A stretch of 64,000 nucleotides of DNA from a virus, in IMG/VR virus record IMGVR_UViG_3300028883_000005, positions 18,576-82,575 of that record. One strand, given 5' to 3'. Under the pieces are notes generated by a model. It made no database searches, was not told the origin of the DNA, and saw only the letters and a program-made list of their open reading frames with translations. Of this stretch, positions 3,116 through 62,621 are shown in pieces (position 1 is the stretch's first letter; every line of letters starts with the position of its first letter). A program made the translations under genes and the position numbers.

Positions 3116-3138
3116 TCCTTCCATCAGGGGGTCGAAGC

Positions 3139-36782: not shown

Positions 36783-36792
36783 AGCTCCTCCT

Positions 36793-42777: not shown

Positions 42778-42786
42778 TTTTTCCAC

Positions 42787-43185: not shown

Positions 43186-43250
43186 TTTACACCTCCTTAT
43201 ACCATACATAGTATATCCGCCTTGCTTTTTCAACAATAAAGTTTTAAAAT

Positions 43251-43427: not shown

Positions 43428-46400
43428 TCCTAATCTCCTCTTCTAAACTTATAATTTTGATGTTTAAAAATTCTATTGCAGAGGCTAAATCTTGACAGAA
43501 CACATCTGTAGCTCTGTGGGCACCAAAGGACAAGCCTATAGCAGATTTCAATGCAAAATAAGGTTTACCATCAGGATCTAACAAAGTTTCCTTAGTTTTC
43601 TTATTTTTAGTTGTAAACCAATCAGGAAGAGAATTATCATCTATAATACGAAACCCTGTTCTTTCATCATATTCTGAAGAAGGTCTTATAGAACTTATCA
43701 CAGATAAGTCATCTATATGTTCTATCAACCCATTAGTCTTTCTCCTCTCGTCCAAATAAGGGATATCTGCAACATTTTGAAAATCATCTGCATAAATATC
43801 ATCTGCAGCTTTGGCGGCGGTGAACACATCTAAAACTTTATGAGATGAAGGCCAAATTTCCTCACTCCCGTCTGCCAACTTATAAAAATCTATTTGTAGG
43901 CCACCATCCCCGGCGACATGGTTTCTTAAATCTATTCTAAATCTAGAATACGAATCGTTTTGTAAAATCTCTAGAGAAGCAGATTGCGTACCGTAATCTT
44001 CATCTAAAAGATCTAATGTTATATTGCTCCTTGCTGCCATAAAAGCAGTAGAGAATCTGTTTCCTAAATAAAAACCATTACCCATCATTAGTTGAGTTAC
44101 ATTATCTGCCTCCGGCTCTAAAATAAAACGATTGCCGTCTGTATCTGCCCCCATAATTGTAGAGTAAGAGGTTCCATTGAAAAGAATTTTTCCGGGGTCA
44201 CTATCATTTCCTTCCAATGTTATATCCGCCCCATCTGCGATTACTAAGCCTTCAGGTTGATTAACCGTTAAAACTGCATTATCTAAATCAAAAGACAAAT
44301 TTCCGTTTGTGGACTCCAAAACTCCTGAAATCAGCTTATCTGCAGACAGATATTTTACATGTTGATCTAAAACAGATAAATTCTTTATATAAGCTGAACC
44401 TATTACCTGATTAGCAGTGGCCGTCCAGGCCATAGTGTGTGTTCCACTATTATTGGTAGCAATTATAAAGTCCCCTTCATCTAGTGAAGGTTCTGTGGCG
44501 GCCGCAGAATAACTACTGTCTCCGTTATTCCACCAAACATAAGCTAAGTTAGTATTTCCTGCGGCAATTGTATATTCTGTACCATTATAATAAAGTTTGT
44601 GCTCTGTCCAAGAAATATAACCTGCAGACGGGTCATCGTCTGCCCAAGCATCGTCTACTAATACAGGTATTTCGGTGAAAGCACCACTCAGCTGAGCTAT
44701 GTCTGAAATTGCGGTGGAGGGTAGGTAAATAGAACCTGTGGTGTCGTTATCATCTGCAGCACTACTCTCATTTCCAAAAGTATCTACCGCTTTAACTTCA
44801 AAATAAAGGTCGGCTCCAGAAGGATAACTCTCAGCCTGTGAGTCCGTTAAAAAAACAAATGCCCTTCTATCGTATTTATCATTTTCTATCCAACTTCCCC
44901 ACCCTTCAGATTCTACTTGGAATCTGTACTCATAATGATCAAGGTCTCTTTCTGATCCTAAATTCCATTGGTATGCTAAACCATTCATATAAGGTGTAGA
45001 AGATAAACCATCAGGAGTGGCGGGTGCGGCATTTGTGAAAGTTACCACAGAAGATACAGATTCATCTAAGCTTCCCATCTCCACCGCTGCTATTCTAACT
45101 TTAACAGAGTTGGAAGGGGCACCGCTGTTATCTGAAACATTTTGCTCGTATGTATAAACATAATTATTTACAAAGGAGTCTACCTTTTTAGGAACTTCTA
45201 TACTACGCAGAACTGCTGTTTCCCCAGAATTTAAAAACTCTAATCTCACATGAGATAATGTTATGATCTCAGGTTCAGTCCAAGAAATATCTAGATCTCT
45301 ACTAGCCCAGGTTTGATTGCCTGTATCTGTGCATTCTATGTCTGTTACGGCTTCAATTCCATCGCCTTCGATCGTTACTGTTTCAGAACTTGTCCAATCA
45401 GAAAGCATTCCATAAACGCTTTCTGATCTGGCTTGAACTTCATAAGTAGATCCAACCTGCACCTCATTTATAGATGCTATAGGATCCTCAGAAGAGGCAT
45501 AAACAATCTTCCATTCTGTATAGGTATTTTCTTCTCTGAATCGTACATGATACCTTTTTATTTGGACACCTGGAGGAGACGGAGGTATCAAAGTTACTAC
45601 TATTCCATAACTCACCGTATTACCTGAAAACTCTACCACTCTAATTCCACTCTCTGCACTACTTATAGCAGGAGCAGAAGGTCGAACCCTAGTCGGATCA
45701 TAAGGAACCGTAACATGACTATCAAATTCTGGAGTTTCACCTTGGTCAGCATCATGAACTTCCGGAGCATAGTCCAAACAAATTAATTTAGCAGTGAGTT
45801 GGTGCCCTGGTTCTATACCATTTACAATTAGATCTATAGCCTCCTCATCTGCTTCGCCGAACAAGCATAAAGCTCCTATATCTGGTGCATTAGCTATTGT
45901 TAGAGAAGAGGACACGAATACAGTGGAGGAGGACCCTTCTATAGTTGTAAGCTCTATAGATACAGAGGTCCCGTCCATCTGACGAACTCTTAGACCGTAG
46001 GAAGTCCCTGAAGCCATAGTCCATACTTCATCTACGGTTATACTGGTTACATAAGTTCCATCATCTGTATAAGATTTTACCCTACCTGAACCTAAACCCA
46101 CGCTTATAATTTTATGATTGAATTTAATCCTATCTCCTCTGGTGCAGTCTAACTGCTCTGCATCACAAAAGAAGGTGTGAGTTTCAGGTCTTAACCTTAC
46201 AACAGCTAAAAAATATCTGGCTTGTGCCCAGGCTAATTCTACATTTGTTATACCAGGTAATTCTAGCTCTTCAAATAAAGTAGCATTAGCGGAGGTATAT
46301 CCATCGTCATATACTATTACTTCATCTTCGATATATCCTTTTTCTTCATTTTGTAATCTAACTCTATAAGCATGTGCTTTATTTACAAAAATCTTATTAT

Positions 46401-48360
46401 AGCTATAATCCCAAGTATTCCTCTCTGTAAAATGCTGAGCAATATTGGATTGAGTTTTATCCATTATCACGGAGTGCTTGCCATCTATATAACCTGGTGA
46501 AGCCCTCCCTGCAGAAGCTATCATTTTTAATAGCTCTTCTACACTGGATTTAAAATCTACATAAAGATTAAATTCCCAACCGTTAATTCTACATCTATCA
46601 TGCCATGCTTCTAAAGTATCTATATCTATTTCGTTGTCTGCTTTCGCTTTCTTATTAGCAGGCCCTTGTAAAACATGGCGATAAAGAGAAGCAGGGTTAT
46701 TCGTTGGTGCTAGAGCCCATGTTTCTTCTTCATAATCATAATCTAAACAGATGGTAGTGGCGATACAATTAAATTGGTCGATTACACCATTTAATTTCTC
46801 GGTGGCAGTTATTTTCAAATCTACATGAGCGATGTATGTTTCGAGTATACTTTCGCCAGCTTGGTATGATTTTAAAGTTGTCCAGGTTACTTCATCGAAC
46901 ACCCTATCGTTTGTTGTATCAGATGTAAGCCTTCTAATTCTAACATCATATTGTCCTTCTACTACAGGGAATGAAAACGTTCTAAACACAGCCTCGGAGG
47001 TATGACCTGTAACACTTAAATCCGAATCTATAGCTAAGGTTCCAGAGGCTACATATACTGTATATGTGGTAGGAGAAAAGGTTAATAAACCACCTGTAAC
47101 TTGAAATCCCATAGATTGCACAGCGGAGGATCTTATATCTTCATTATAATCTAGGGCACCTCCATTATTAAGATCCCAGCCAATTACTGCTAAACCGTAA
47201 GCCCAAGAAGGAACTATAGGTTCTTGATCAAAACCACTAGGAACAAAATTTATATCTCCAGATAGTTTGTTCATTACAACAGTGTAATAAACTTGCCAAT
47301 ACTGAGGAGCTCCTATTACATTACCACCAGACTGCCATTCTGGTGTTATTTCTACATTTCTAGATTCAAAGTAGGTTCCACCACCTGACACACCTACCCA
47401 ATCATCTTCCCCTGTGGGCGAGTATTGGAGTTCTAAATTAACTGTTCTAGTAGATTTAGACCCGTCATCTTCAATTTCACACAAACCACGCAAAAAGGTT
47501 AGATCCACACATATTGCCACAGTATTTAACTGAGTTGTATGCAATACCCAACCATCAGCATTAGAAATTAAATCTGATAAGCTATCTGGATAAACATCGC
47601 CAGGTATAATATCGGAATAAGTGGTTTCCTCGTTTCCATAATAAAAAGAATATAAAAGCTCTTCTTCGGAGGCAATATTAGTAAGCTCTGTCTCTCCTAT
47701 TTTGAAATCACTTAACTCACAAGGACCTTTTTGGATTAGAAAAGAACTGAACAAAACTTGTTTTGTTCCTTCAGATTCAGTATAAGGAAGAGCAGCATAA
47801 GGTGGAACAATTCTTACTGTACCTAGTACAGAAGGGATCACTCCATATAGATTTAAACTATTTCTAGCGGCAGATATTCCATAGGAGTTGGAAGATTTGT
47901 AAGTATTGGTGGGACTCATATCCGATGGTGGGGGAACCAACGAATTTAAAGCTAAAAGTCCTAAAGTAGATAAAGCTCCGAAAGCTAGAGCGAAAGCTAA
48001 AGAACCACCTATATAAGGTGTGAGAGGAGCTGCCACATATGGTGCGACAACATAAGCAATCACTAAAACAATCACTGTAAGCACCGTGATCATTGTAGAG
48101 TCACTATCGCCCCCTGAAGGAACAGCTCTCAACATCACTATATCTGTTCTATGAGGAAAGGTTGTAGCCCAATCCTCTTTTTTGATCACCTCGTTATTTA
48201 ATGTTACTATAATATCAACATAAGAGGGAAAGTTCGAAGCTCGCACTATATCTAAGATTGTGCAACCTTCTGAAACTCTAACCTCAGACTTTCGGAAAGA
48301 AAAAGGGTTGCTCCTGACTAGAGCTTTAACTTCTTTTTCGATATCTATAATATCCGACAA
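43414..48360 (-). CDS. Tail tip/central fibre protein (lambda gpI+gpJ-like) with FN3 domains
   Basis: Ubiquitin-like N-term ending VPSGG, YGVIPSVLG, GQYDVRIRRLT, NNPA, FN3 YEVQARS, chaperone-like coiled-coil C-terminus. Confidence 0.88.
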   Translation of the reverse strand: MSDIIDIEKEVKALVRSNPFSFRKSEVRVSEGCTILDIVRASNFPSYVDIIVTLNNEVIKKEDWATTFPHRTDIVMLRAVPSGGDSDSTMITVLTVIVLVIAYVVAPYVAAPLTPYIGGSLAFALAFGALSTLGLLALNSLVPPPSDMSPTNTYKSSNSYGISAARNSLNLYGVIPSVLGTVRIVPPYAALPYTESEGTKQVLFSSFLIQKGPCELSDFKIGETELTNIASEEELLYSFYYGNEETTYSDIIPGDVYPDSLSDLISNADGWVLHTTQLNTVAICVDLTFLRGLCEIEDDGSKSTRTVNLELQYSPTGEDDWVGVSGGGTYFESRNVEITPEWQSGGNVIGAPQYWQVYYTVVMNKLSGDINFVPSGFDQEPIVPSWAYGLAVIGWDLNNGGALDYNEDIRSSAVQSMGFQVTGGLLTFSPTTYTVYVASGTLAIDSDLSVTGHTSEAVFRTFSFPVVEGQYDVRIRRLTSDTTNDRVFDEVTWTTLKSYQAGESILETYIAHVDLKITATEKLNGVIDQFNCIATTICLDYDYEEETWALAPTNNPASLYRHVLQGPANKKAKADNEIDIDTLEAWHDRCRINGWEFNLYVDFKSSVEELLKMIASAGRASPGYIDGKHSVIMDKTQSNIAQHFTERNTWDYSYNKIFVNKAHAYRVRLQNEEKGYIEDEVIVYDDGYTSANATLFEELELPGITNVELAWAQARYFLAVVRLRPETHTFFCDAEQLDCTRGDRIKFNHKIISVGLGSGRVKSYTDDGTYVTSITVDEVWTMASGTSYGLRVRQMDGTSVSIELTTIEGSSSTVFVSSSLTIANAPDIGALCLFGEADEEAIDLIVNGIEPGHQLTAKLICLDYAPEVHDADQGETPEFDSHVTVPYDPTRVRPSAPAISSAESGIRVVEFSGNTVSYGIVVTLIPPSPPGVQIKRYHVRFREENTYTEWKIVYASSEDPIASINEVQVGSTYEVQARSESVYGMLSDWTSSETVTIEGDGIEAVTDIECTDTGNQTWASRDLDISWTEPEIITLSHVRLEFLNSGETAVLRSIEVPKKVDSFVNNYVYTYEQNVSDNSGAPSNSVKVRIAAVEMGSLDESVSSVVTFTNAAPATPDGLSSTPYMNGLAYQWNLGSERDLDHYEYRFQVESEGWGSWIENDKYDRRAFVFLTDSQAESYPSGADLYFEVKAVDTFGNESSAADDNDTTGSIYLPSTAISDIAQLSGAFTEIPVLVDDAWADDDPSAGYISWTEHKLYYNGTEYTIAAGNTNLAYVWWNNGDSSYSAAATEPSLDEGDFIIATNNSGTHTMAWTATANQVIGSAYIKNLSVLDQHVKYLSADKLISGVLESTNGNLSFDLDNAVLTVNQPEGLVIADGADITLEGNDSDPGKILFNGTSYSTIMGADTDGNRFILEPEADNVTQLMMGNGFYLGNRFSTAFMAARSNITLDLLDEDYGTQSASLEILQNDSYSRFRIDLRNHVAGDGGLQIDFYKLADGSEEIWPSSHKVLDVFTAAKAADDIYADDFQNVADIPYLDERRKTNGLIEHIDDLSVISSIRPSSEYDERTGFRIIDDNSLPDWFTTKNKKTKETLLDPDGKPYFALKSAIGLSFGAHRATDVFCQDLASAIEFLNIKIISLEEEIRNARK

Positions 48361-54106: not shown

Positions 54107-54751
54107 TTATGGAGCTGTGGTAGTGGTTGTTGTGCTGGTCGTAGTTGTAGAGGTCAGAGTGGAACCGTCGTCCCAAATAAAGCAACCGAGGGGCATACCA
54201 TCCCAAATCACATGACCTCCGGATACCTCGCTGTCTGCCCTCTTGGCTTCAATGCTGATAGGCACGGCTGCCGGCTCCTCCGCCTGGAAGTCCAGCTCCT
54301 GCTGGGCAACAATCTGACATCTCGGGAAAATGATGTACAGTTTGTTGGTTCCATCAGGAAAGGTGTATACAGCCTCCATCCTTAGATAAACCGGTGCCGC
54401 CATTGTACCGATAGCCAGACGAGCATAGTGGTTTTCAGAGTAACTCGTAGGATCTAGACCACGAGCAATCGCCATGTTGTAGGGTGTGATTTCCTTGAAA
54501 GCACATTCCAACATAGCAGTTTCACGAAGCGGGAACACCGCATCTTCCATCATCGGAAACCCAGACTCTAGCTTGTAAAAGTCAACAGAGCCTGTGTATT
54601 TGGTATTGGCCAGGGCACCGAGGTTGTTGGTGGTCGGTAAAATGGGGTTTATCTGACCAATGTAGGTTGAAGCGAGACCCACCCTGATCTGTGCGAGACC
54701 CAATGCAACAGCCGTGGTATCTCTGGTTACTGGACCTGTCCTTTGTGTCAT
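54107..54751 (-). CDS. Major tail tube protein with C-terminal STLTSTTTTSTTTTTTAP tail
   Basis: Strong RBS, GC3-rich codons, synteny, IIFPRCQ...LDF..EE tube-like motifs. Confidence 0.82.
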   Translation of the reverse strand: MTQRTGPVTRDTTAVALGLAQIRVGLASTYIGQINPILPTTNNLGALANTKYTGSVDFYKLESGFPMMEDAVFPLRETAMLECAFKEITPYNMAIARGLDPTSYSENHYARLAIGTMAAPVYLRMEAVYTFPDGTNKLYIIFPRCQIVAQQELDFQAEEPAAVPISIEAKRADSEVSGGHVIWDGMPLGCFIWDDGSTLTSTTTTSTTTTTTAP

Positions 54752-54762
54752 AAGATCACCTC

Positions 54763-55038
54763 CTATTCAGATTTGTGTGTTTTGCCGGAATTCTGTTCGA
54801 CTTGGTCGATTGACTGGGGCAACAAAGTAAACACATTCCAATGATCAGGGTGTTCTTTTCTACAGGAGTCCCTGATACATCTCATTCTAGCATTACCTAT
54901 AATTTCGATTTCTACTGGTGGCTCCTTTCTGGCGTAGGACTTGCCAAACTTAAATATTAAAGTTCCATTGCTCTTTCGCTCTATGAGCTTTTTTCCGCAT
55001 TTAGAACATCGAAGCATCATTTTTTTGGGCCTACTCAT
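54763..55038 (-). CDS. Com-like zinc-ribbon protein
   Basis: RCSKCGKKL...MRC...C..N pattern. Confidence 0.6.
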   Translation of the reverse strand: MSRPKKMMLRCSKCGKKLIERKSNGTLIFKFGKSYARKEPPVEIEIIGNARMRCIRDSCRKEHPDHWNVFTLLPQSIDQVEQNSGKTHKSE

Positions 55039-55508
55039 ATTTTACTCACAAACCGTAGTCTCACCAAGACCACTTTAAATTTAGTTCCTTCTGGAGCAAC
55101 AGACTCCCCTAATTCATCTATGCTAAACACTATGAGAGACCCAATCTTCACCCAAGCAGAGGTTGGGCTGCTCTGATAGAAAGGTATTCTTTTGGTTCCG
55201 TCTCCATTACTGGAAGTGTCAGTAAGATAACCTAAGAGCTTATCTCCTAACTGAGCGAGTTTAAAACCTTCATTATCTTCCTTAGTGCAACAAATTATCC
55301 TTATTAGGGCTTCAGAGGGCACTCCTCTAGTGATTGGTCCAAATTCTACCCTATACCATTTATCTAAGGTTCTACCTGATATGTTAGGAGTAGTAAGACG
55401 AGAATCAAAAAGAATAGGAACCCCTTCAGCAGTCTCTAAGTTGTCCACAAGGAACTTCTTAACACTGTCCCTAAAATTAGATTCTCTCGCCGTTGCATCT
55501 AAAGCCAT
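55035..55508 (-). CDS. Tail terminator/completion protein (putative)
   Basis: Size and synteny. Confidence 0.55.
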   Translation of the reverse strand: MALDATARESNFRDSVKKFLVDNLETAEGVPILFDSRLTTPNISGRTLDKWYRVEFGPITRGVPSEALIRIICCTKEDNEGFKLAQLGDKLLGYLTDTSSNGDGTKRIPFYQSSPTSAWVKIGSLIVFSIDELGESVAPEGTKFKVVLVRLRFVSKI

Positions 55509-55714
55509 TAGGAAATAGACCTCATTTCTTCGCTGAGTCTCTGTAGATTAGGAAAAAATTTGGTGGTTACATACTCTCCAGCTTTTTTAAGTCTATCAGA
55601 ACCTAAAAAATCTAAAGAGCAGCTATCCAAAAAATCTAGAAGCATCTCTACTTCCTCTTGAGACATCTCGATTTCTGTATGTAATTGCCTAGGGTAGATC
55701 CTCTTTACTCTCAT
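55508..55714 (-). CDS. Hypothetical protein
   Basis: Overlapping start/stop on both sides. Confidence 0.6.
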   Translation of the reverse strand: MRVKRIYPRQLHTEIEMSQEEVEMLLDFLDSCSLDFLGSDRLKKAGEYVTTKFFPNLQRLSEEMRSIS

Positions 55715-56244
55715 CTCCAGTTCCTCTTTATTATTGTCCTAGATTCTTTCAGCCTCTTTAAGGCTCCGGATTTTTTATATTCTTCCAAAGTAGGACCAAA
55801 AACAGGTCTAGCGGGGTGAACTTGTCCTTCGAATGACCCTCCGTATTCCATTATCCTGCCGTATGCTCCTATGTAAGTGGGCTTGCCTAAACCTGAATAG
55901 TTCTTACCTCCACTATCCAAAATTCCTGCAGGAATGCCTGATACCCACCCAAATTTTCCTTTTTTCCACATAGAAAGTGCCTGAAGTAAATCACCACTTA
56001 AAATCCAAAACCTAGATTCAGGACCTCTCTTAGATTTCCATTTTCCGTACTTTTCACTATATGGTTCATAACCAGCAGAGTATCTCTGGTTAACTATATT
56101 CAAGTAAACGAGCTTTAAATAATCTACACCTAACTGATACCCTATATTTTTAGCTCTGACATAGACGGCAGATCTAACTTTAGCTATTGCGGACAATACC
56201 TTTTTTAGATCTTTAGCAACAAAAATGATTTTTATAGTAACCAT
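55711..56244 (-). CDS. Neck/tail-completion protein (HK97 gp10-like)
   Basis: Basic; SGDL..., YG.IMEYG...PARPVF.P. Confidence 0.7.
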   Translation of the reverse strand: MVTIKIIFVAKDLKKVLSAIAKVRSAVYVRAKNIGYQLGVDYLKLVYLNIVNQRYSAGYEPYSEKYGKWKSKRGPESRFWILSGDLLQALSMWKKGKFGWVSGIPAGILDSGGKNYSGLGKPTYIGAYGRIMEYGGSFEGQVHPARPVFGPTLEEYKKSGALKRLKESRTIIKRNWR

Positions 56245-56934
56245 CTAAGGAGCTGTTGTTGTCGTAGTGGTGCTGGTTGTTGTCGTAGTGGTGCTGGTTG
56301 TTGTCGTAGTGGTAGTTAAAGTACTGTTATCTAAACTTAATTCTAAAACATCCAGCCCTTCATATCTTTTCTTTTTGACAGATTCAACCAGATAAAAAGC
56401 CCCATCTAGGCGAACAGTGTCTTTGGGTAGGACACCATAGGAGGAGGGAATGTACATCTCTAAAATTTCGGAAGGGATCGGTCCTGTTTCGCTGTCCTCA
56501 TTAAGCTCGTTACCAAATAAAGGTGAAGTTACACAAACATAAATATCTTCGGCCACGATAGTGTAATGAGTTTCAGCTAAATAAGTGTCCTCATTCCTAT
56601 CTTGGTAGGATCGAACTACAGAAACAGGCTCGTTGGCTTTGTATAAAACTAAAGAATGCCTATAAATTTCATTTTCAAAAGAGTCTGGTGTACTATGAGC
56701 TACTAGGTACTGAACACCAGTACCTGTAATAGTTACAACATCTCCAGATTTAATATCTAAATCATAAGCAACTTGACCTTCTAAAAAGAACTCCCGGATA
56801 AAAGGCTTGGTTACTTGGGCATTACTTTTAAGCCAAACATAGTTGGTAGCACTTTGTAAAACTCCATCCCTATGCAAACTGAAAAGCAAACCTGTCTCTT
56901 CTATTGCGGATTTTAGATCTAATCCCAGAGACAT
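56245..56934 (-). CDS. Head-closure-like protein with C-terminal poly-Thr...TAP tail
   Basis: Synteny; two beta-barrel-like halves; ends STLTTTTTTTSTTTTTTSTTTTTTTAP. Confidence 0.65.
   Translation of the reverse strand: MSLGLDLKSAIEETGLLFSLHRDGVLQSATNYVWLKSNAQVTKPFIREFFLEGQVAYDLDIKSGDVVTITGTGVQYLVAHSTPDSFENEIYRHSLVLYKANEPVSVVRSYQDRNEDTYLAETHYTIVAEDIYVCVTSPLFGNELNEDSETGPIPSEILEMYIPSSYGVLPKDTVRLDGAFYLVESVKKKRYEGLDVLELSLDNSTLTTTTTTTSTTTTTTSTTTTTTAP
56248..56325 (-). repeat. 21-bp tandem repeat (about 3 copies) encoding Thr/Ser tail
   Basis: GTTGTTGTCGTAGTGGTGCTG unit on + strand. Confidence 0.9.
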
Positions 56935-56936
56935 GA

Positions 56937-57386
56937 CTACTCGCTTTCTTTAGGATGGTGCAAAACCAACTGATCCTCGCTGTATGTTCTATCTCTACCT
57001 AATCCATCCGAAGCAAAACCTGCATCCACCTTAGTTCCAAAGAACTTATAAGTACTCACATCAGCAAAAAGCACAGGATTCTCTTCCTTTGCCTCCTCGA
57101 ACTTTTTATCTAGATCTTTTATCAGAGACCTATAATGATCAAAACGCTGATTGAGGTTAACTTGTTCGAACTTAAACTTATGAGCACTCTCGCTCATAAG
57201 TGCAAAAAACAAATGTCTGAGGGCCCTCTGCTTCAACCAGAAAAGCTTATCTCCGGTTTGCGGCAAAGTCCATCCCAGTTCCTCCTCGGCGGAATCTACT
57301 GCTTCTGTGTAGTCCGCCGGGTCGAGATAACTGGAGAGAGACTTAACTTTTACTGGAAGCCAAGCTACCATTTCAGATTGATTCAT
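56937..57386 (-). CDS. Head-tail adaptor (putative)
   Basis: Helical 149 aa; synteny after capsid. Confidence 0.6.
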   Translation of the reverse strand: MNQSEMVAWLPVKVKSLSSYLDPADYTEAVDSAEEELGWTLPQTGDKLFWLKQRALRHLFFALMSESAHKFKFEQVNLNQRFDHYRSLIKDLDKKFEEAKEENPVLFADVSTYKFFGTKVDAGFASDGLGRDRTYSEDQLVLHHPKESE

Positions 57387-57671
57387 TTAGCCCTCAACCC
57401 TTCGAGCTCTTCTCAAAGGCTCCTCTTGCTTAGGTGGTTTCTCTTCGGCAGGCAGGGTGGTTTCCACCGCTGCATCCCAAACAGACAGATCCTCGTCTGA
57501 AACTGGAGGCGGGGGTGATTGATGTTTAGAATACTCTAAAACATCAACCACATCCCCGCGGTAAACTTCAGTTAAGATATCTTCAGGTATGGGGGCAGTA
57601 TACACACCAACAGTATACTCTTTGGACCCTGCCTTTAGATGCTTTTTAAGCAATAGTTTTTCGATATGCAT
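57387..57671 (-). CDS. Hypothetical head-region protein ending EEPLRRARRVEG
   Basis: RBS GGAGG 8 nt upstream of ATG 57671. Confidence 0.68.
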   Translation of the reverse strand: MHIEKLLLKKHLKAGSKEYTVGVYTAPIPEDILTEVYRGDVVDVLEYSKHQSPPPPVSDEDLSVWDAAVETTLPAEEKPPKQEEPLRRARRVEG

Positions 57672-57709
57672 ATCGATTGCCTCCAGTCGATTATTACGAC
57701 ACCGCCCCA

Positions 57710-59065
57710 TTATGGAGCTGTGGTCGTAGAGGTGGTGCTGGTTGTCGTGGTGCTGGTTGTTGTAGTGGTACTGGTGGCGGACTCACCGGTGGTCGCCGTG
57801 ACATCGATGGTATAAATAGCATCCGTATGATAAAGGACAGGAAGCCCCTTATCTTGGACTCTAACGTAGATGCCTTCAGGGTCCCACACCTCTTTCTTGT
57901 CCACATACATGCCGTAATGACGGCCGAGGCCAAAAGGAGCCTGCATATATCTGGCAATTGGCTTTCCGTCTACTTTGTCCGTAAACATCACGAACTTGTC
58001 GTCCGGCATAAAGTACCTGGTCATGGACACATAATCTTCACCTGCCTGATAGCTGCTGGTGAATGGGTACTCGATCTGAATACGATCGTTTGCCTTGTCC
58101 ACAGAGAGGACTATACGCTCTTCAAAAGAGCCGTCCGTCTGATCCACGATTTTGATCGTAGAGTAAGCCTCAAAATCGCTGGCATCATTCACTGTGAGCC
58201 AGGTGGTGCTTCCGGCGGTGACCGCCGCGGTCAGCCAAGCTTTGACCTCATACATCTCATCGTATACGATGATTTCGTCGATGTCAAAAAGCTGGCCCAG
58301 GGTTCTGGCATTAACCAACGCCAAAGGATCTACCCCAGAACTACCAAATAGACTGCCATCACCGAAACGATCGCGGTACAGAAGTGCCTGCAGGGTGGTG
58401 TCTTTGCCAATCATATCCAAAACCTTGCTGTTACACATGGCCTTGGTAACATGGCTACCCACCGCCTCCGAGATTTTGCGCTTTCCGGTTTTGATATCTC
58501 CGAGGATGTCTTTGCTTCCGCCCGTATCCCAGTAATAGGCAGAGGCAAGACTCACCTTATGGGTGGACGGAATACCGTAATCCAGAGTGAACTTGACGCC
58601 GCCTTTCAGCTGGTAAGTCAAGGACCCCGTAAACAGCATTTGACAGAACATCCACTCTTTCCGGCGATTGGCACGATTGGAAATGTCGGACATGGCATCC
58701 GAAAGGATATCCATCGCTGTGTGGTGCGAGGCGTCTGTTCCGGGCTTACGGAGATTATTCAGGAACTCCTCATCGAAGTACCTTTTCTCCTTCCAGTAAG
58801 CCGCCTCGGCTGTGTGCTCAGCGATGCCATACCCTGCGGACAGTGGTGCTGGATGGCCAGGAGGAACGAACGGTGTCATTCCACGGCCGCCGCGTTGGCT
58901 TTCCCACTTGATAGATGAAGAATCCGCGTTCCTTTTAGGAAAGAGATTAGACATCACCAAATTCGGCGGTGCTTTGAAGGTTTCCACAAACTCCTGAAGA
59001 ACCTCCAACCTTAGGGCAGGAATGTCCGATTGTCCTCGAGACATTTTGTATTTTGATCGATTCAT
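57710..59065 (-). CDS. Major capsid protein (HK97 fold, gpE-like) with inserted beta domain and C-terminal Thr/Ser tail
   Basis: MTPFV, RRKEWM..Q.L..G, DYGIP..H, DILGDI, WDPEG....V...GLP; ends ATSTTTTTSTTTTSTTSTTTAP. Confidence 0.92.
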   Translation of the reverse strand: MNRSKYKMSRGQSDIPALRLEVLQEFVETFKAPPNLVMSNLFPKRNADSSSIKWESQRGGRGMTPFVPPGHPAPLSAGYGIAEHTAEAAYWKEKRYFDEEFLNNLRKPGTDASHHTAMDILSDAMSDISNRANRRKEWMFCQMLFTGSLTYQLKGGVKFTLDYGIPSTHKVSLASAYYWDTGGSKDILGDIKTGKRKISEAVGSHVTKAMCNSKVLDMIGKDTTLQALLYRDRFGDGSLFGSSGVDPLALVNARTLGQLFDIDEIIVYDEMYEVKAWLTAAVTAGSTTWLTVNDASDFEAYSTIKIVDQTDGSFEERIVLSVDKANDRIQIEYPFTSSYQAGEDYVSMTRYFMPDDKFVMFTDKVDGKPIARYMQAPFGLGRHYGMYVDKKEVWDPEGIYVRVQDKGLPVLYHTDAIYTIDVTATTGESATSTTTTTSTTTTSTTSTTTAP

Positions 59066-59093: not shown

Positions 59094-59774
59094 TTAACGG
59101 ATATACAGGAACTGACCGAAGGAGGCAGCCGACAGATCTGTCTTGGCGGCGCTGTCCATGTTCCGAAGAACCCCTTCGTGGACGACACAATTGCCCAGGA
59201 CCAATGTAGCGATGGCCCCCTTAGCATTTGCCCCAACCCCTGTATTCACAGATTTTTCAAGGATGCCCACTGCATCCGAGTAGTTGTTGGTGTTGTCACC
59301 AGCCTCCACACAAACATAGGCGAACCTAGCGGTTGTGAAAGCAGTTCCACCGATACTGGCGGTGAAAGTGATCTTGGCCATGTGAGGATAAGTACTCCTA
59401 TCGATGGCGGTGATTGCCCCCAGATTTTCGGCGGAGGTTGTATCATCGTTGATGATCAGGTCGTCACCGACCACAAACTTGTAACTATCGTTCATTGTAA
59501 CATACACATACTTGTCTGTGGTTCCGGAGTTGGCGACCAGATAGGCCCTGCCAGGATGATCCTCAGCGCCGGTAAACGATGTAGGGTTATAAGGAACCAA
59601 AGTTCCTACCCCGCCGCCGGCGGATTCATTCAAAGCCAAGACCTGCCCCATCTTAAGAAGTCCATAACCTGCTTGGATTGTCACAGGTACCTTGAGAGCT
59701 GCCATAGGGTCACTATGGTACATAGCTCTAAGATCTTCCTGAACCCCTCGGATAATGTTAGGAATATCTTGCAT
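59094..59774 (-). CDS. Head decoration protein (gpD-like) with inserted domain
   Basis: VTI.AG.G.LK.GQVL...LVPY...AVGIL; directly upstream of capsid. Confidence 0.8.
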   Translation of the reverse strand: MQDIPNIIRGVQEDLRAMYHSDPMAALKVPVTIQAGYGLLKMGQVLALNESAGGGVGTLVPYNPTSFTGAEDHPGRAYLVANSGTTDKYVYVTMNDSYKFVVGDDLIINDDTTSAENLGAITAIDRSTYPHMAKITFTASIGGTAFTTARFAYVCVEAGDNTNNYSDAVGILEKSVNTGVGANAKGAIATLVLGNCVVHEGVLRNMDSAAKTDLSAASFGQFLYIR

Positions 59775-59839: not shown

Positions 59840-61006
59840 CTATTTAGCTGTCTGGCCGGCGCGGCTCAGCATGTCGGATACTACCGACTTATTCTCTTCA
59901 GAGAGCTGGTCAGATCCTTCACCTGCTTCATCTCCTGAAGAAGAAAACCCTCGAACATCGGTGGGGGCCATTCTGCTTTCCCAGTCTGCAATCTCATCTT
60001 GGACAGCCTTGGAGAAAGCCTCTTCATCCAGTCTATCCTCTTTCACAAACTTGCTGTGGTTGATTTGATTGCGAACCTTAGACTCCAGCCTAGGCTCCAC
60101 ATCGCTGTCCGCAAAGATTTCGGCGAACAACTTGTCTGCCCGACTTTTCATTGCTTCCTCACGAGACAGGGTAAGCTCCTTCTCCATTTTCGCTGTTCTC
60201 TCTTCCGTTTCGGAGAACTTGGAATTCATGGAGTCGATCTGCTCTTGGAAGCTTTTCCTCTCGTCTGAAAACTGAGATTCGGCCTCCTGCCGTCCTAGTG
60301 ATTTGCCCTCCTCAATTACTTGAGAGAACAAGTCGGGGTGCTTGGTTTTGAATTCCTTAAGATCCATGATGTTTTCACCTCCTTCCGAGTTTTTGTTAGT
60401 ATCTCCCTCTTCATCTAAAGTAAGAGTCTCCTCACCTCCTTCCTCAAGATAGTCTACCTCTTCCTCTTCATCCCTGGAAAAAGCAGACGATTTGGTTTTG
60501 CTGTCCCACCCAAAAACACATACAGAGGATTCTTTGTACTCCCACTCCCTCCATACCGTTCCTGGGCCTTTGACTTTGTGGCCGTTGACCACAACCTCTT
60601 CATCTTCCCCAAACCTCTGTATCTTGGAAGGTTTTCCATACAAACTTGCCTGATAAGGAAACCCCTCTTTGCTCAATTTACGGAATTCCTGACTATGAGG
60701 TGTGTCTACAAAACCAGACTTTTCAGGGTCCAGTTGAATTCCACCATCCGCAGTAACGATTGGTTTCTGATGGAACCCTACCTTTCGATCAGTTTCATGA
60801 TTTTCCAGAATGGGATAAACCTTTTGGCGGAACTTAACACCTTCGAGGTCCATTATGAGGTTGTCCCACCACCAGTGATTCTCAATCACTCCGCCTGTGT
60901 ATACTGTCATCTGGATCCTCTCTTTGCCGTCATCTGCGGCAAAGGCACAGGCTGTCTGGCCGGCTCCTACAAAACGAAGTGCTCCTTTCGGTATCTTATT
61001 CGCCAT
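59840..61006 (-). CDS. Prohead protease/scaffold
   Basis: YTGG, PILENH, GFPYQAS, ESSVCVFGWD; acidic coiled-coil C-half; start moved to 61006. Confidence 0.85.
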   Translation of the reverse strand: MANKIPKGALRFVGAGQTACAFAADDGKERIQMTVYTGGVIENHWWWDNLIMDLEGVKFRQKVYPILENHETDRKVGFHQKPIVTADGGIQLDPEKSGFVDTPHSQEFRKLSKEGFPYQASLYGKPSKIQRFGEDEEVVVNGHKVKGPGTVWREWEYKESSVCVFGWDSKTKSSAFSRDEEEEVDYLEEGGEETLTLDEEGDTNKNSEGGENIMDLKEFKTKHPDLFSQVIEEGKSLGRQEAESQFSDERKSFQEQIDSMNSKFSETEERTAKMEKELTLSREEAMKSRADKLFAEIFADSDVEPRLESKVRNQINHSKFVKEDRLDEEAFSKAVQDEIADWESRMAPTDVRGFSSSGDEAGEGSDQLSEENKSVVSDMLSRAGQTAK

Positions 61007-62621
61007 CTTTCTCTTCCTTTTTGTTTGATTTAGCAGGCTCTGCTTCTGCCTTCTCCTGCTTAGACTCTGCATCCATAGTATATACTAACTTAGGATACTT
61101 TTTCCTCTCTGTTTCCCTCTGGAGTCTTCCTCTACCATAGTTACTAAATCCCATTCTATTAGCAACTTCACTATTAGGAACACCCAAAGTCTCTGTGAGA
61201 GGCCCATGCTTTACACCGATCATTCCCTTAGCTCTAGATTCGTAATCTATATTTTCAGAGGTTGGGAAGGATATATCTATTAAAAACTCCGGCTTCCTAG
61301 GTATTTTCTTAAATACAGGTGTGTGATTATACTCTATTTCTCCATTCTCACCTTTTTTCTCTACAGATGTGAAATCCACACACTCTTCCACAGGGATTGT
61401 AGCTGGGAAAGATCCCACTTTATTTTTAAGGAGGAAAACAGATCCCCAAAAATCAAACTGGAGGAAGTTTTTGAACCAGGCAATTTCATCAGAGGTTCTA
61501 TCACTCATAGGACCTCTCGAAGCTTTTATGGAGGCATAAGGAGAGGTGCTCTTTCCTGTCATTACACCTTCCTCTTCATTTAGCCCGCTACCCACCATCT
61601 TTAAAATGTCTGTGTCTTGCTCGTTTAGCGTAGGTAGAGAAGGACTTTTAGCCTCCATAGTAATGCCATTTGGAAGAACCATAGAACCACCAGGTGTCTT
61701 CTTGGCCATAATACCTGTTTTTCTACGATCCTCATCTGAAAGAGAAAGCCAAAGCTTAAATGCCGCAGGATCTTCTATTGTAAATACCCAGAGATAGGAC
61801 CCTGCACTTCTCTTATGGTCTATCTCGTAGTTTTTCAGTTGCTCATATAGATTAGCCCATCTTAAAACGGTTCTTAGATAGGAGATCACCCTCCTCTCAA
61901 TAAGGCCACGGTCCCATCCTACCACAAAACGGTAGTAACCGTTTAATTTTTGGTATACCTTCTTTCTGGATTTACAAACGGCTTGAGCCTTAACTAAAAA
62001 ATCGTCGTGTTTCCTAGCATCTGCTACTAGAGAAGGGTTATGAGCAATATAAATGGAAGGTATTTGATAAGAAAATCCTCTACCTATAGGATTTTCTCCT
62101 TTAATATTATAAAATAGGGGCATGGTCTTTTTTGTAGAATGATAAATAATACCTACATCATCCTTACCCCCTCCCACATCATCTGGGTCTAAAAAATCTA
62201 TTTCTACGAAACCTTTCTCATGAATCGTGAATATTAAAAAGAGTTCACCTTCAATCTTTTCCCTGGCAACATATTTAGGCATGAAATTATAAAGGCGATT
62301 GCGATAATCAAACCAAGTTTCGTCCAACACCTCTTGGACTGTAAACACAGGGCTGCTGCATCCAAATCCTAAACCAGTGAGCCTTCCTTGAAGTCCGCGA
62401 ATAGCTGTGTTGATTTGAGGGTTATTATCGAACTTATTCCAGCACTCGTCTCTAATCTCAGATGCAGACATGGACTTGTAGGGCCGTTTCTGCTCAAAAC
62501 CGTCAGGATCCGAGTAGTCATTATCAGAACCAGGATCGTGCTGCCAGGGAATAGAAAAGGTTAGCCCTTTAAGGACTTCCGGTGGGACATTCTCTAAAGC
62601 TTTTAGAATTTCATTGTCCAT
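60996..62621 (-). CDS. Portal protein
   Basis: Size and position between terminase and protease; NPQI...G, GELF, PGG..VLP. Confidence 0.8.
   Translation of the reverse strand: MDNEILKALENVPPEVLKGLTFSIPWQHDPGSDNDYSDPDGFEQKRPYKSMSASEIRDECWNKFDNNPQINTAIRGLQGRLTGLGFGCSSPVFTVQEVLDETWFDYRNRLYNFMPKYVAREKIEGELFLIFTIHEKGFVEIDFLDPDDVGGGKDDVGIIYHSTKKTMPLFYNIKGENPIGRGFSYQIPSIYIAHNPSLVADARKHDDFLVKAQAVCKSRKKVYQKLNGYYRFVVGWDRGLIERRVISYLRTVLRWANLYEQLKNYEIDHKRSAGSYLWVFTIEDPAAFKLWLSLSDEDRRKTGIMAKKTPGGSMVLPNGITMEAKSPSLPTLNEQDTDILKMVGSGLNEEEGVMTGKSTSPYASIKASRGPMSDRTSDEIAWFKNFLQFDFWGSVFLLKNKVGSFPATIPVEECVDFTSVEKKGENGEIEYNHTPVFKKIPRKPEFLIDISFPTSENIDYESRAKGMIGVKHGPLTETLGVPNSEVANRMGFSNYGRGRLQRETERKKYPKLVYTMDAESKQEKAEAEPAKSNKKEEKDGE

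What the first reader, a model, noticed from the sequence alone, without database searches (positions are those of the whole stretch)
54107..57790. Three unrelated virion proteins share a C-terminal (T/S)n-TAP tag resembling the MUC5AC repeat
Seen: capsid ends ATSTTTTTSTTTTSTTSTTTAP (57713-57790), head-closure ends STLTTTTTTTSTTTTTTSTTTTTTTAP (56248-56325), and tail tube ends STLTSTTTTSTTTTTTAP (54110-54165). Codons are mixed rather than a simple microsatellite. The capsid and tube genes end in the same 15 nt including the stop, and two tails begin STLT. Known: the MUC5AC repeat is TTSTTSAP, and Pro at +3 favours ppGalNAc-T acceptors. Inference: a portable acceptor module copied between genes, with terminal AP as a possible recognition element.
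Basis: partly seen in the sequence, partly recalled or inferred. Interest (0 to 1): 0.82.

Follow-up and report, generated by a model that had tools for sequence, protein, structure and literature searches.

The report
Poly-threonine glycosylation tags on phage virions
An uncultured 82.6-kb phage ends its capsid, neck and tail-tube proteins in threonine/serine-rich tails and carries a cluster of sugar-adding enzymes, so it probably coats its particle in sugars, as a few mycobacteriophages are reported to do.

Summary
Three minus-strand virion genes (major capsid 57710-59065, a neck stopper-like protein 56245-56934, major tail protein 54107-54751) end in 13-21-residue Ser/Thr runs followed by AP-stop. 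These are the only long S/T runs in the window's six frames.

The tails are conserved. 111 of the 120 best capsid homologues carry one. In 86 IMG/VR loci the three orthologues are tagged together or not at all. Tagged capsids form one clade.

The window also holds a seven-gene enzyme island (29686-35820): a GT27-like GT-A, two further GT-A, two GT-B, a methyltransferase and a sulfotransferase-like protein. Homologues of two island enzymes occur in 10 of 10 near-complete tagged genomes and in 0 of 3 untagged ones, but this reflects a single evolutionary gain.

My best reading (about 0.6) is that the tails are acceptors for phage-encoded O-glycosylation. This resembles the mycobacteriophage Che8 system but has a mucin-like tag and unrelated enzymes.

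The terminal AP is not conserved (13 of 111; a single Ala is commonest). There is no MUC5AC-type repeat. Nucleotide data do not support recent copying between genes.

No glycan has been shown.

The parts
57710..59065 (-). Major capsid protein (451 aa, lambda gpE-type HK97 fold). Residues about 431-449 are an S/T run, followed by AP-stop.
   Evidence: PF03864 3.3e-29 and phrog_29 7.2e-50. Tail seen. 111 of 120 best homologues are tailed.
57713..57790 (-). Capsid C-terminal tail (…TGESATSTTTTTSTTTTSTTSTTTAP), appended beyond the point where untagged relatives end (…YILDVA/N*).
   Evidence: A perfect 15-nt x1.9 repeat lies at 57732-57760.
56245..56934 (-). Neck protein (229 aa) built of two tandem stopper/head-closure-like beta-barrels (residues 1-101 and 96-205), with an S/T tail at 207-227 followed by AP.
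   Evidence: AF2 pLDDT 79.7, tail below 60. VIA-align Z 10.8 to 9jlf_C, 10.5 to 8vhx_F, 9.8 to 8gtf_M and 3f3b. Foldseek prob 1.0 to 9l0e_A, 3f3b, 9jlf_C, 9mu3_C.
56248..56325 (-). Neck-protein tail (STLTTTTTTTSTTTTTTSTTTTTTAP), containing a perfect 21-nt x2.8 tandem repeat.
54107..54751 (-). Major tail (tube) protein (214 aa) with an S/T tail at residues 200-212 followed by AP.
   Evidence: phrog_476 0.0087 for the window protein. 5 of 25 orthologues hit phrog_476 (best 6.1e-6) and 4 hit phrog_117. Synteny upstream of the 1230-aa tape-measure-sized gene. Tail seen.
54110..54163 (-). Tube tail (STLTSTTTTSTTTTTTAP). Its last 15 nt are identical to the capsid gene's.
34489..35820 (-). GT-B fold, GT4-like glycosyltransferase (443 aa). 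First gene of the island.
   Evidence: Pfam GT4/GT1 hits below cut-off. AF2 model pLDDT 69.1. Foldseek: BshA 3mbo 4.4e-10, MshA, GlgM, prob 1.0. Orthologues in tagged relatives only.
33371..34501 (-). Probable second GT-B glycosyltransferase (376 aa).
   Evidence: A profile of 7 orthologues hits the WbaZ-1 mannosyltransferase C-domain 2f9f at 9.5e-4, and more weakly CapJ and BshA. Overlaps its neighbours by 13 and 26 nt.
32809..33396 (-). Class I SAM-dependent methyltransferase (195 aa).
   Evidence: Pfam Methyltransf_23 5e-4, below cut-off. A profile of 7 orthologues hits O-methyltransferases 4qdj at 2e-5 and 5dpm at 2e-4.
32081..32812 (-). GT-A (GT2-like) glycosyltransferase (243 aa). Core island gene, present in all 9 islands examined.
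   Evidence: ESM Atlas features 0.98-0.99 and structure TM 0.73-0.84 to GT2 clusters. Orthologue table. No Pfam or PDB sequence hit.
31425..32081 (-). GT2 glycosyltransferase (218 aa).
   Evidence: PF00535 1.3e-7, above cut-off.
30760..31428 (-). Sulfotransferase-like protein (222 aa). Not part of the conserved core.
   Evidence: ESM Atlas features 0.97 to sulfotransferase clusters and structure TM 0.72-0.74 to four named sulfotransferase-family clusters (0.62-0.65 to two more; the two top rows, 0.74-0.76, are unnamed). No BLAST orthologue in the 8 other islands. No Pfam hit.
29686..30636 (-). GT27-like GT-A glycosyltransferase (316 aa) with invariant DxH and GGE motifs, no lectin domain and no membrane anchor. 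Candidate initiating polypeptide O-glycosyltransferase.
   Evidence: PF00535 2.5e-12. Profiles of 8 and of 57 homologues both hit human GALNT10 2d7i best (2.9e-6 and 1.3e-6), with FxDSHC aligned. 9 of 17 PDB hits are ppGalNAc-Ts. D99, H101, G199, G200 and E201 are invariant in 57 sequences. No hydrophobic segment.

Best explanation
The poly-Ser/Thr C-terminal tails are acceptor tags for O-glycosylation by the phage's own late-expressed enzyme island (window 29686-35820).

The proposed mechanism is inferred, not shown. During late infection the soluble, anchor-less GT27-like GT-A enzyme (316 aa) puts a first sugar on Ser/Thr of the disordered tails. This would happen in the host cytoplasm, on capsid, neck and tail-tube subunits. 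The other GT-A and GT-B enzymes extend the glycan, and the methyltransferase (and here a sulfotransferase-like protein) cap it. Because the tagged proteins are the repeated building blocks of head, neck and tail, the result would be a mucin-like sugar coat over the whole particle.

The tails are pure appendages. Untagged relatives end exactly where the tails begin. The tails grow and shrink by short tandem duplications. What is conserved is composition (a run of T/S plus one to three small terminal residues), not a motif such as AP.

Shown here: the tags, their conservation, their all-or-none pattern across three proteins, their single origin, their co-occurrence with the island, and the enzyme folds.

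Inferred: that the enzymes act on the tails, which enzyme initiates, the glycan itself, and what the coat is for.
For: 1. The tags are real and specific. The only three S/T runs of 13 or more residues in six frames of the window are at these C-termini. They are the only S/T runs of 7 or more in real genes of the whole 82.6-kb genome.

2. The tags are conserved. 111 of 120 best capsid homologues are tailed. Of 86 IMG/VR loci, 74 are tailed.

3. The three proteins are tagged together or not at all. Capsid versus neck protein: 58 tail/tail, 12 none/none, and 1 exception that is a broken ORF. Capsid versus tube: 36 tail/tail and 3 none/none.

4. Tagged capsids form one clade (64 of 76 rows, SH-like support 99, 1 change), with untagged ones basal.

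5. The island consists of seven co-oriented, mostly overlapping genes at the end of the structural strand. Folds are GT4 GT-B, GT-B, O-methyltransferase-like, GT-A, GT2, sulfotransferase-like and GT27-like.

6. Co-occurrence in records at least 74% complete. All 10 tagged records (G000, G002, G003, G006-G012; G009 and G010 are near-identical) have the 443-aa and/or 316-aa enzyme, and 8 have both. None of 3 untagged records (G004, G005, G013) has either.

7. In relatives the island lies next to fibre genes that are 45-51% Ser/Thr. Untagged G004 and G005 have no S/T run of 7 or more anywhere.

8. There is a precedent. Glycans at the C-termini of capsid and tail-tube subunits of mycobacteriophages, made by phage glycosyltransferases next to an O-methyltransferase, are described in passages of PMC11600133 and PMC12619734. 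Che8 encodes three tandem glycosyltransferases.

9. The neck-protein tail is modelled with low confidence (pLDDT below 60), which is consistent with a disordered tail.
Against: - No glycan has been observed; everything is sequence-based.
- The tag/island association rests on one evolutionary gain, so statistically it is a single event, not 10 versus 3 independent cases.
- The island could serve the S/T-rich fibres, DNA or the host envelope instead.
- Untagged G004 has an unrelated GT2.
- Outside the clade, 0 of 12 records with an ORF ending T8-A-stop have homologues of the 316-aa or 443-aa enzymes. Three of those records are at least 90% complete.
- G008 (93% complete, tagged) shows only the 316-aa and 243-aa enzymes.
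- Che8's tails are short (…NKTGS, …YSDGS) and its enzymes show no sequence similarity to the window's. The precedent is an analogy, not homology.
- Whether the capsid and neck C-termini face outward was not tested.
- The GALNT similarity is modest (31 bits, about 5 bits above the best bacterial GT2).
Confidence: 0.6

Rival explanations
1. The tails work unmodified, as disordered hydrophilic bristles that keep particles soluble or non-sticky, or that act as spacers. The enzyme island acts on something else: only the S/T-rich fibres of relatives, the DNA, or the host surface.
For: Low-confidence tail in the model. The genome has other modification systems according to earlier notes. The association of island and tags is a single phylogenetic event. 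T8-A-stop ORFs occur in 12 other viral records that lack homologues of the two enzymes.
Against: In the window genome the three tails are the only S/T runs of 7 or more residues in real genes, yet the seven-enzyme island (about 6 kb) is kept. The best structural relatives of the 316-aa enzyme are polypeptide O-GalNAc transferases. Tags and island are kept together down to about 52% capsid identity.
Confidence: 0.2
2. The tails act in assembly and are removed or buried in the mature particle, for example as a scaffold-like or chaperone-binding signal cleaved by the prohead protease.
For: A head maturation protease homologue lies upstream at 59840-61072 (phrog_3244 1.6e-15). No data here show the tails in mature virions.
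Against: Three proteins that assemble by different routes (head shell, neck, tail tube) share the tag, and some relatives tag distal tail proteins too. Untagged sister lineages assemble the same orthologues without tails. From recalled knowledge, HK97-type proteases trim N-terminal, not C-terminal, parts of capsid proteins.
Confidence: 0.07
3. The tails are neutral low-complexity sequence made by replication slippage at the 3' ends of genes and have no function.
For: Perfect 21-nt and 15-nt tandem repeats lie inside the tails. Tail length varies widely among homologues, from about 10 to more than 60 residues.
Against: The tails are kept on the same three orthologues in 74 of 86 loci and across a clade with about 50% capsid divergence. 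Synonymous codons differ while the residues are kept. The pattern across proteins is all-or-none. There are no such runs elsewhere in the genome.
Confidence: 0.05
4. One reading: a MUC5AC-like module whose terminal AP is recognised by (animal-type) ppGalNAc-T, copied as DNA between genes.
For: All three window tails end TTAP and two begin STLT. The capsid and tube genes share their last 15 nt (chance about 0.003 per pair). A GT27-like enzyme is encoded.
Against: AP occurs in 13 of 111 capsid homologues, while a single A occurs in 63. The tails have no 8-residue repeat and no internal Pro. 0 of 48 same-ending pairs in relatives share the 15 nt. STLT uses different Ser and Leu codons in the two genes. 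The one public run that holds the sequence is labelled marine sediment metagenome, and no animal host context was found.
Confidence: 0.03

Closest known systems
Virion O-glycosylation of mycobacteriophages (Che8, cluster O and others; Freeman et al. 2023, Cell Host Microbe 31:1216). That paper is not held in the library. It is known here only from citing passages and from my recall.
   Same: Phage-encoded glycosyltransferases, in some clusters with an O-methyltransferase. Both capsid and tail-tube subunits are modified at their C-termini. Che8 has three tandem glycosyltransferase genes. In both cases unrelated virion proteins of one phage share a similar C-terminal ending (Che8: …GS and …GS).
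   Different: Che8's endings are short (…NKTGS, …YSDGS) and have no poly-S/T run. There is no BLASTP or phmmer similarity between Che8 gp107-111 and any protein of this genome. Here a third protein (neck) is tagged, relatives also have fibre proteins that are 45-51% S/T, and the enzyme set includes a GT27-like and a sulfotransferase-like protein. The capsid family also differs: the window's is PF03864, and Che8's 273-aa capsid gave no BLAST match (one search lists no Che8 hit). The host is unknown and uncultured.
Mucin-type O-glycosylation initiated by GT27 polypeptide GalNAc-transferases (animals)
   Same: Dense Ser/Thr acceptor tracts. The 316-aa enzyme's best solved relatives are GALNT10, 7, 9, 4, 12 and 1, with the DxH and GGE regions aligned.
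   Different: No ricin-type lectin domain, no type II membrane anchor or stem (316 aa against about 550-630). The action would be cytoplasmic. The tails have no tandem PTS repeat unit and no internal proline. The donor sugar is unknown. The similarity is weak (31 bits).
Serine-rich repeat adhesin glycosylation by GtfA/GtfB (Gram-positive bacteria; recalled knowledge)
   Same: Cytoplasmic O-glycosylation of long Ser/Thr-rich tracts. The machinery starts with a pair of adjacent GT-B proteins. Here the 443-aa and 376-aa genes are adjacent and overlap.
   Different: No NCBIfam hit at all for the 443-aa or 376-aa proteins at E<=0.01, so no detectable membership. There is no accessory Sec export, and the substrates are virion proteins.
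Glycosylated capsids and fibrils of giant viruses with virus-encoded glycosyltransferases (chloroviruses, mimiviruses; recalled knowledge)
   Same: The virus carries its own glycan-building genes and decorates its own particle independently of a host secretory pathway. One Foldseek hit of the 443-aa model is a chlorovirus NY2A putative glycosyltransferase, 3oy2.
   Different: Those are eukaryotic viruses with a different capsid fold and different linkage types. They have no C-terminal poly-S/T tags.
Ig-like or other decoration domains on phage capsids and tail tubes (T4 Hoc; the lambda gpV C-terminal domain is recalled knowledge)
   Same: Surface appendages on the repeated head and tail subunits that are dispensable for the fold. 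The C-terminus of tube proteins is a known place for outward-facing additions (recalled).
   Different: Here the appendage is a 13-21-residue low-complexity tail rather than a folded domain, and it comes with modifying enzymes.

Membership tests
Phage virion O-glycosylation system (Che8 type) | Phage-encoded glycosyltransferase genes | tested here: met
   PF00535 hits above cut-off for two genes. GT-B fold for the 443-aa protein. GT-A for the 243-aa protein.
Phage virion O-glycosylation system (Che8 type) | Capsid and tail-tube subunits share a C-terminal acceptor extension | tested here: met
   S/T tails on both, plus the neck protein. Untagged relatives end where the tails start. The sequence type differs from Che8's …GS ends.
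Phage virion O-glycosylation system (Che8 type) | Homology of the enzymes to Che8 gp108-110 | tested here: not met
   No significant BLASTP hit (best E 0.56) and no phmmer hit between Che8 gp108-110 and any ORF of the genome.
Phage virion O-glycosylation system (Che8 type) | Glycan demonstrated on virion proteins | not testable with these tools
   Needs mass spectrometry or glycostaining. The phage is uncultured.
GT27 polypeptide GalNAc-transferase | GT-A catalytic domain with a DxH metal-binding motif | tested here: met
   D99-x-H101 is invariant in 57 homologues. It aligns to FLDSHC of GALNT10.
GT27 polypeptide GalNAc-transferase | Gal/GalNAc-T motif (WGGE…) and a downstream metal-binding His | tested here: inconclusive
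   IYGGGEN aligns to IWGGEQ. H225 is invariant and H226 nearly so, but the printed alignments stop before that position.
GT27 polypeptide GalNAc-transferase | C-terminal ricin-type lectin domain and N-terminal membrane anchor | tested here: not met
   The protein is 316 aa and aligns to the catalytic domain only (residues 4-218 against 114-327 of the 570-aa GALNT10). The maximum hydropathy over 19 residues is 1.07.
GT27 polypeptide GalNAc-transferase | Transfers GalNAc from UDP-GalNAc to Ser/Thr of peptides | not testable with these tools
   Needs an enzyme assay.
MUC5AC-type mucin tandem repeat | Tandem copies of an 8-residue TTSTTSAP-like unit with regular proline | tested here: not met
There is one terminal AP only and no internal Pro. 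The repeats found are 15-21 nt (5-7 residues) of T/S only.
Lambda gpE-type major capsid protein (PF03864) | Profile match above the curated cut-off | tested here: met
   102.4 bits against a cut-off of 22.9. phrog_29 7.2e-50.
Head-to-tail stopper / head-closure neck proteins | Small beta-barrel fold of solved neck stoppers | tested here: met
   Both halves of the model match: Z 10.8 (97 aa, rmsd 3.6) to 9jlf_C and Z 9.8 to 3f3b and 8gtf_M. This is a fold match only. The protein's position in the particle was not tested.
SRRP glycosylation GtfA/GtfB | Match to the curated GtfA/GtfB models | tested here: not met
   No NCBIfam family at E<=0.01 for the 443-aa or 376-aa proteins.

The most novel reading that the evidence does not exclude
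A large, so far undescribed clade of environmental tailed phages wraps the whole particle (head, neck, tail tube and, in many members, fibres that are half Ser/Thr) in a mucin-like, possibly methylated or sulfated O-glycan coat. The clade has 347 capsid relatives in IMG/VR, and 565 homologues of the enzyme were found in the protein collection. The coat would be started in the bacterial cytoplasm by a minimal, lectin-less, anchor-less relative of animal polypeptide GalNAc-transferases acting on a short, genetically portable poly-Thr tag. If so, virion glycosylation is common outside actinobacteriophages. The tag-plus-enzyme pair would also be a ready-made cytoplasmic O-glycosylation system.
Probability: 0.35. 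Interest if true: 0.8.

Novelty: new variant of a known kind. Interest (0 to 1): 0.6.

Why it matters
Glycosylated phage particles are so far documented only for a few actinobacteriophages. My recollection of that paper's abstract, which I could not check, is that it found little evidence elsewhere. Here a simple sequence signature marks a whole environmental clade: C-terminal poly-Ser/Thr tags on the repeated virion subunits, plus a glycosyltransferase island.

If the prediction holds, three things follow:
- Sugar coats on phage particles are widespread, and they can be recognised from sequence.
- A soluble bacterial-virus relative of the mucin-initiating enzymes exists.
- A short tag with a cognate enzyme becomes available for making O-glycoproteins in bacteria.

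It also bears on how phage particles behave in sediments and on surfaces, for example stickiness, protease resistance and recognition by predators or defences.

Tried and rejected
- Che8 homology. BLASTP and phmmer of Che8 gp107-111 against all ORFs of the genome gave nothing significant. I rejected homology and kept the analogy.
- GtfA/GtfB membership. No NCBIfam hit.
- Sequence-only PDB searches. The single 443-aa and 376-aa proteins gave only noise. Profiles did better. The 243-aa profile and the tube profile hit nothing.
- Cultured phages. The 443-aa enzyme has no tblastn hit in 50,697 records. The 316-aa enzyme has two weak hits. The named one, Tunturiibacter phage Tunturi_4 gp2, has a DxH motif, but that phage's virion proteins have no S/T tails.
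- Host. GTDB genomes gave 4 MAG contigs from four unrelated lineages, probably binning artefacts. The host is unresolved.
- Promoter/terminator scan of 28800-37000. There were fewer promoter-like sites than in shuffles (16 against 22.7) and terminator-like sites at chance level. No operon boundary can be claimed.
- Sequencing runs. One DNA holder only, kept as contigs and possibly the source. No RNA holder was listed. Read laying was not used, since contigs cannot show tail-length variants.
- Generality beyond the clade. The pattern T8-A-TAA found 42 viral stretches. About half are outside the clade, but profiles of the 316-aa and 443-aa enzymes hit 0 of the 12 non-clade records searched. I could not extend the tag/enzyme link to other lineages.
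- Outward orientation of the capsid and neck C-termini.
- Literature. 'phage'+'polythreonine' returned 5 papers, none relevant by title or abstract. 'phage, capsid, glycosylated, threonine-rich, C-terminus' (4 of 5 terms) listed nothing relevant among the 15 shown. Of the 24 library papers that cite Freeman 2023, none describes poly-S/T-tagged uncultured phages by title or abstract. I read passages only from PMC11600133, PMC12619734, PMC13445384, PMC12582341 and PMC13477221. PMC13419713 held only an abstract-length text with no match. One search was a badly framed search (min_terms 1) and gave nothing useful. Freeman 2023 and its supplements could not be seen, and they may bear on which residues are modified in Che8.
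- A bug. The tail-length and composition lines and the 'tube' codon line are wrong (off-frame slice; zero-length tails). I do not use them. Only the counts of endings from that call are used.

Full report
WHAT IS THERE

The window is the larger part of an 82,575-bp single-contig virus record. Its last 30 nt recur at position 97, so the ends overlap. One long minus-strand block runs from 63969 down to 29686 and holds the structural genes.

- The 451-aa ORF at 57710-59065 ends …GESATSTTTTTSTTTTSTTSTTTAP.
- The 229-aa ORF at 56245-56934 ends …DNSTLTTTTTTTSTTTTTTSTTTTTTAP.
- The 214-aa ORF at 54107-54751 ends …DDGSTLTSTTTTSTTTTTTAP.

In a six-frame translation these are the only S/T runs of 13 or more residues. 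In the whole genome they are the only runs of 7 or more in real genes.

The codons are mixed, but the tails are not repeat-free. TRF finds a perfect 21-nt x2.8 repeat in the 229-aa protein's tail and a perfect 15-nt x1.9 repeat in the capsid tail.

WHAT THE THREE PROTEINS ARE

The 451-aa protein is a lambda gpE-type major capsid protein (PF03864 3.3e-29; phrog_29 7e-50).

The 229-aa protein has no family hit. Its AlphaFold model, built on 54 aligned orthologues, has mean pLDDT 79.7. It consists of two tandem beta-barrels (residues 1-101 and 96-205). Each matches solved phage neck 'stopper/head-closure' proteins: Z 10.8 to 9jlf_C, 10.5 to 8vhx_F, and 9.8 to 8gtf_M and 3f3b. Foldseek gives local matches at probability 1.0. 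The tail is modelled with pLDDT below 60.

The 214-aa protein is the major tail protein by position, directly upstream of two chaperone-sized genes and a 1230-aa tape-measure-sized gene. Weak family matches agree: the window protein hits phrog_476 at 0.0087, 5 of 25 orthologues hit phrog_476 (best 6.1e-6), and 4 hit phrog_117.

CONSERVATION

Of the 120 best capsid homologues in the 5.8-billion-protein collection, 111 carry an S/T tail. The nine that do not are all 415 aa.

IMG/VR holds 347 capsid relatives. I examined the 87 loci fetched in two scans, of which 86 have a capsid ORF. Of these, 74 are tailed and 12 are not.

The three orthologues are tagged together or not at all:
- Capsid versus neck protein: 58 tail/tail, 12 none/none, and one exception (L098), where the neck ORF is broken and a 62-aa fragment carries the tail.
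- Capsid versus tube: 36 tail/tail and 3 none/none.

Untagged proteins end exactly where the tails begin: …YILDVA*, …EDTR*, …PLGRMIWA*. The tails are therefore appendages to complete domains.

A FastTree of 76 distinct capsids, with the tails cut off and rooted on the most distant group, puts all 64 tagged rows in one clade (SH-like support 99). That implies one change of state, with the untagged rows basal. This is a quick tree, and the untagged long branches are flagged as unsure by the tool.

Some relatives tag further proteins. Eight of 170 tagged ORFs are not orthologues of the three. Many relatives have distal fibre proteins that are 45-51% Ser/Thr.

THE ENZYME ISLAND

At the far end of the same strand lie seven tightly packed genes, 35820 down to 29686. 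Six of them overlap or abut.

| Coordinates | Size | Assignment | Evidence |
|---|---|---|---|
| 34489-35820 | 443 aa | GT4-like GT-B glycosyltransferase | Pfam below cut-off; model pLDDT 69; Foldseek BshA 3mbo 4.4e-10, MshA, GlgM |
| 33371-34501 | 376 aa | Probable GT-B | Profile hits the GT-B C-domain of WbaZ-1 at 9.5e-4 |
| 32809-33396 | 195 aa | Class I SAM methyltransferase | Profile hits O-methyltransferases at 2e-5 |
| 32081-32812 | 243 aa | GT-A, GT2-like | Language-model features 0.98-0.99; predicted structure TM 0.73-0.84 |
| 31425-32081 | 218 aa | GT2 | PF00535 1.3e-7 |
| 30760-31428 | 222 aa | Sulfotransferase-like | Features 0.97; TM 0.72-0.74 to named sulfotransferase clusters |
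| 29686-30636 | 316 aa | GT27-like GT-A | PF00535 2.5e-12; see below |

None has a signal peptide or a membrane segment. The one hydrophobic stretch, at residue 253 of the 443-aa protein, lies in a region the model folds as a helix followed by a strand (H249-261, E266-272).

An earlier first-stage note (e1-6132580) pointed to GT27-like motifs in the 316-aa protein, and I tested that. A profile of 8 orthologues and a second profile of 57 homologues both rank human polypeptide GalNAc-transferase 10 (2d7i) first among all PDB sequences (2.9e-6 and 1.3e-6). The alignment spans about 215 residues and puts the invariant F-x-D-S/A-H-C on FLDSHC and IYGGGEN on IWGGEQ. Nine of the 17 hits at E<=0.1 are ppGalNAc-Ts; the rest are TarP, TarS, a GT2 and heparosan synthase.

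The margin over bacterial GT2s is small, about 5 bits. The protein has no lectin domain and no anchor. I therefore call it GT27-like, not a member of GT27.

DO THE ISLAND AND THE TAGS GO TOGETHER?

I fetched five whole relatives and ran tblastn with all window-genome ORFs. Six island genes have orthologues in the two informative tagged genomes (G002, G003). None has an orthologue in the two untagged ones (G004, complete; G005, 85% complete).

I then searched 20 records with two of the enzymes. Among records at least 74% complete:
- All 10 tagged ones (window, G002, G003, G006-G012; G009 and G010 are near-identical) have the 443-aa and/or the 316-aa enzyme.
- Eight of those have both. In G006 the single enzyme found lies near the end of a linear contig.
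- G008's first 12 kb hold only the 316-aa and 243-aa enzymes, followed by DNA-metabolism genes.
- None of the 3 untagged ones (G004, G005, G013) has either. G004 does have an unrelated 245-aa GT2.
- Fragments below 55% completeness are uninformative.

Across nine islands the core is the 443-, 376-, 195-, 243- and 316-aa genes, plus 0-9 variable genes. The island lies next to the S/T-rich fibre genes.

The caveat matters. Since the tags arose once, this is one evolutionary event followed by joint retention, not many independent associations.

The joint retention is still telling in the window genome. Here the three tails are the only long S/T tracts, yet the island is kept.

1. AP. After the last S/T, tailed capsid homologues end in A (63), nothing (14), AP (9, plus VAP 2, PAP 1 and AAP 1, so 13 end in AP), P (4), and assorted small residues. 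The neck protein often ends in V, A, AP, P or PP, and the tube in A, S, AP or GP. AP is not conserved.

What does recur is one to three small non-hydroxyl residues at the very end. Endings are more alike within a genome than in shuffles: neck versus tube are identical in 15 of 30 genomes against 7.0 expected, with 0 of 5000 shuffles reaching 15. Related genomes inflate this figure. It may reflect a shared constraint or shared ancestry.

2. Copying. In relatives, 48 of 107 within-genome pairs have the same last four residues, and none shares the last 15 nt. Nucleotide identity of tail ends within genomes (0.62-0.76) is hardly above that between genomes (0.61-0.70).

In the window the capsid/tube 15-nt identity has a chance probability of about 0.003 per pair, or about 0.01 for any of three pairs. 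It may be a small local conversion or luck. The shared STLT start uses AGT/TTA in one gene and TCC/CTG in the other. That speaks for selection on the peptide or for old divergence, not for recent copying.

3. MUC5AC. The tails have no 8-residue unit and no internal proline. The likeness is one of composition only.

4. The link to mucin-type chemistry survives in another form, through the phage's own GT27-like enzyme.

COMPARISON WITH WHAT IS KNOWN

The closest system is virion glycosylation of mycobacteriophages. I could not read the primary paper, which is not held. Citing papers say that glycans sit at the C-termini of capsid and tail-tube subunits. They also say that cluster O phages have three tandem glycosyltransferases downstream of an O-methyltransferase, which modify capsid and tail tube.

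In the Che8 record the capsid ends …NKTGS and the tube ends …YSDGS, and gp108-110 are annotated as glycosyltransferases. The logic is the same: shared C-terminal endings on head and tail subunits, plus phage glycosyltransferases and a methyltransferase. The tag is different (short, against 13-21 or more S/T). The enzymes show no detectable similarity.

I found no paper in the searchable library that describes poly-S/T-tagged virion proteins in uncultured phages. The library lacks most subscription journals.

REACH BEYOND THE CLADE

A scan of IMG/VR for eight Thr codons plus Ala plus TAA found 42 stretches. Roughly half belong to this clade.

The others include a second lineage in which a ~190-215-aa protein ending …SPYFD…(T)n-A/V sits just upstream of a tape-measure gene, with other tagged ORFs nearby.

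Profiles of the 316-aa and 443-aa enzymes hit none of the 12 non-clade records searched. Most of those are fragments, but three are at least 90% complete. The tag alone is therefore not proof of this enzyme set.

VERDICT

The best explanation, at about 0.6, is phage-encoded O-glycosylation of poly-S/T tags on head, neck and tail subunits. This is a new variant of a known kind. It is entirely predicted from sequence.

The same system had already been flagged on this window by the first-stage reader (e1-6132578). My analysis tests and largely agrees with that note.

Noticed in passing
IMG/VR records G002 (32872-37063), G003 (42270-46736 and 55634-57823), and L116-L120: Relatives carry very large distal-tail or fibre proteins (385-1654 aa) with up to 28 S/T runs and 45-51% Ser/Thr overall. 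They lie directly next to the enzyme island. The window genome has no such protein.
   Followed up: partly
L128, L131, L132, L134, L139, L140, L147, L151, L156, L162: A second viral lineage has a ~190-215-aa protein ending …SPYFD…(T)n-A/V just upstream of a tape-measure homologue (26-31% identity to the window's where matched), with further S/T-tailed small ORFs. No capsid or tube homology to the window was found in these fragments.
   Followed up: partly
L122 (Tunturiibacter phage Tunturi_4, PP885687.1) 1567-2565: A cultured Acidobacteria phage has a glycosyltransferase with an FLDNHC (DxH) motif between its terminase and portal genes. It is the only named cultured-phage hit of the 316-aa enzyme (20% identity, 9e-6). 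Its virion proteins have no S/T tails.
   Followed up: partly
window 59094-59774 (-): A 226-aa protein between the protease/scaffold gene and the capsid gene has no family hit. It is more conserved than the capsid itself (69-73% identity in G001-G003, against 56-70% for the capsid). It may be a decoration or scaffold protein.
   Followed up: no
window 38073-39260 (-): A 395-aa protein (24% Ser/Thr) has weak PKD-like / glucodextranase-B-like hits at residues 286-376, below cut-off. I did not check that.
   Followed up: no
genome ends (G000 C1): The last 30 nt of the 82,575-bp contig recur at position 97, so the assembly ends overlap, indicating a circular or terminally redundant genome.
   Followed up: no
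L163-L166: The only GTDB genomes with a capsid relative are four MAG contigs labelled Thermotogota, Melioribacter, Alphaproteobacteria and Bacteriovoracaceae. Source names add Planctomycetota and Bathyarchaeota. The scatter suggests binning artefacts, and the host remains unknown.
   Followed up: no
L121 (G008) 1792-4164: In one 93%-complete tagged relative, the 316-aa and 243-aa enzymes sit next to DNA-metabolism genes (Metallophos, PDDEXK, 5'-3' exonuclease, RecA-like) rather than next to fibre genes. The GT-B pair was not found. This may be a minimal two-enzyme version.
   Followed up: partly
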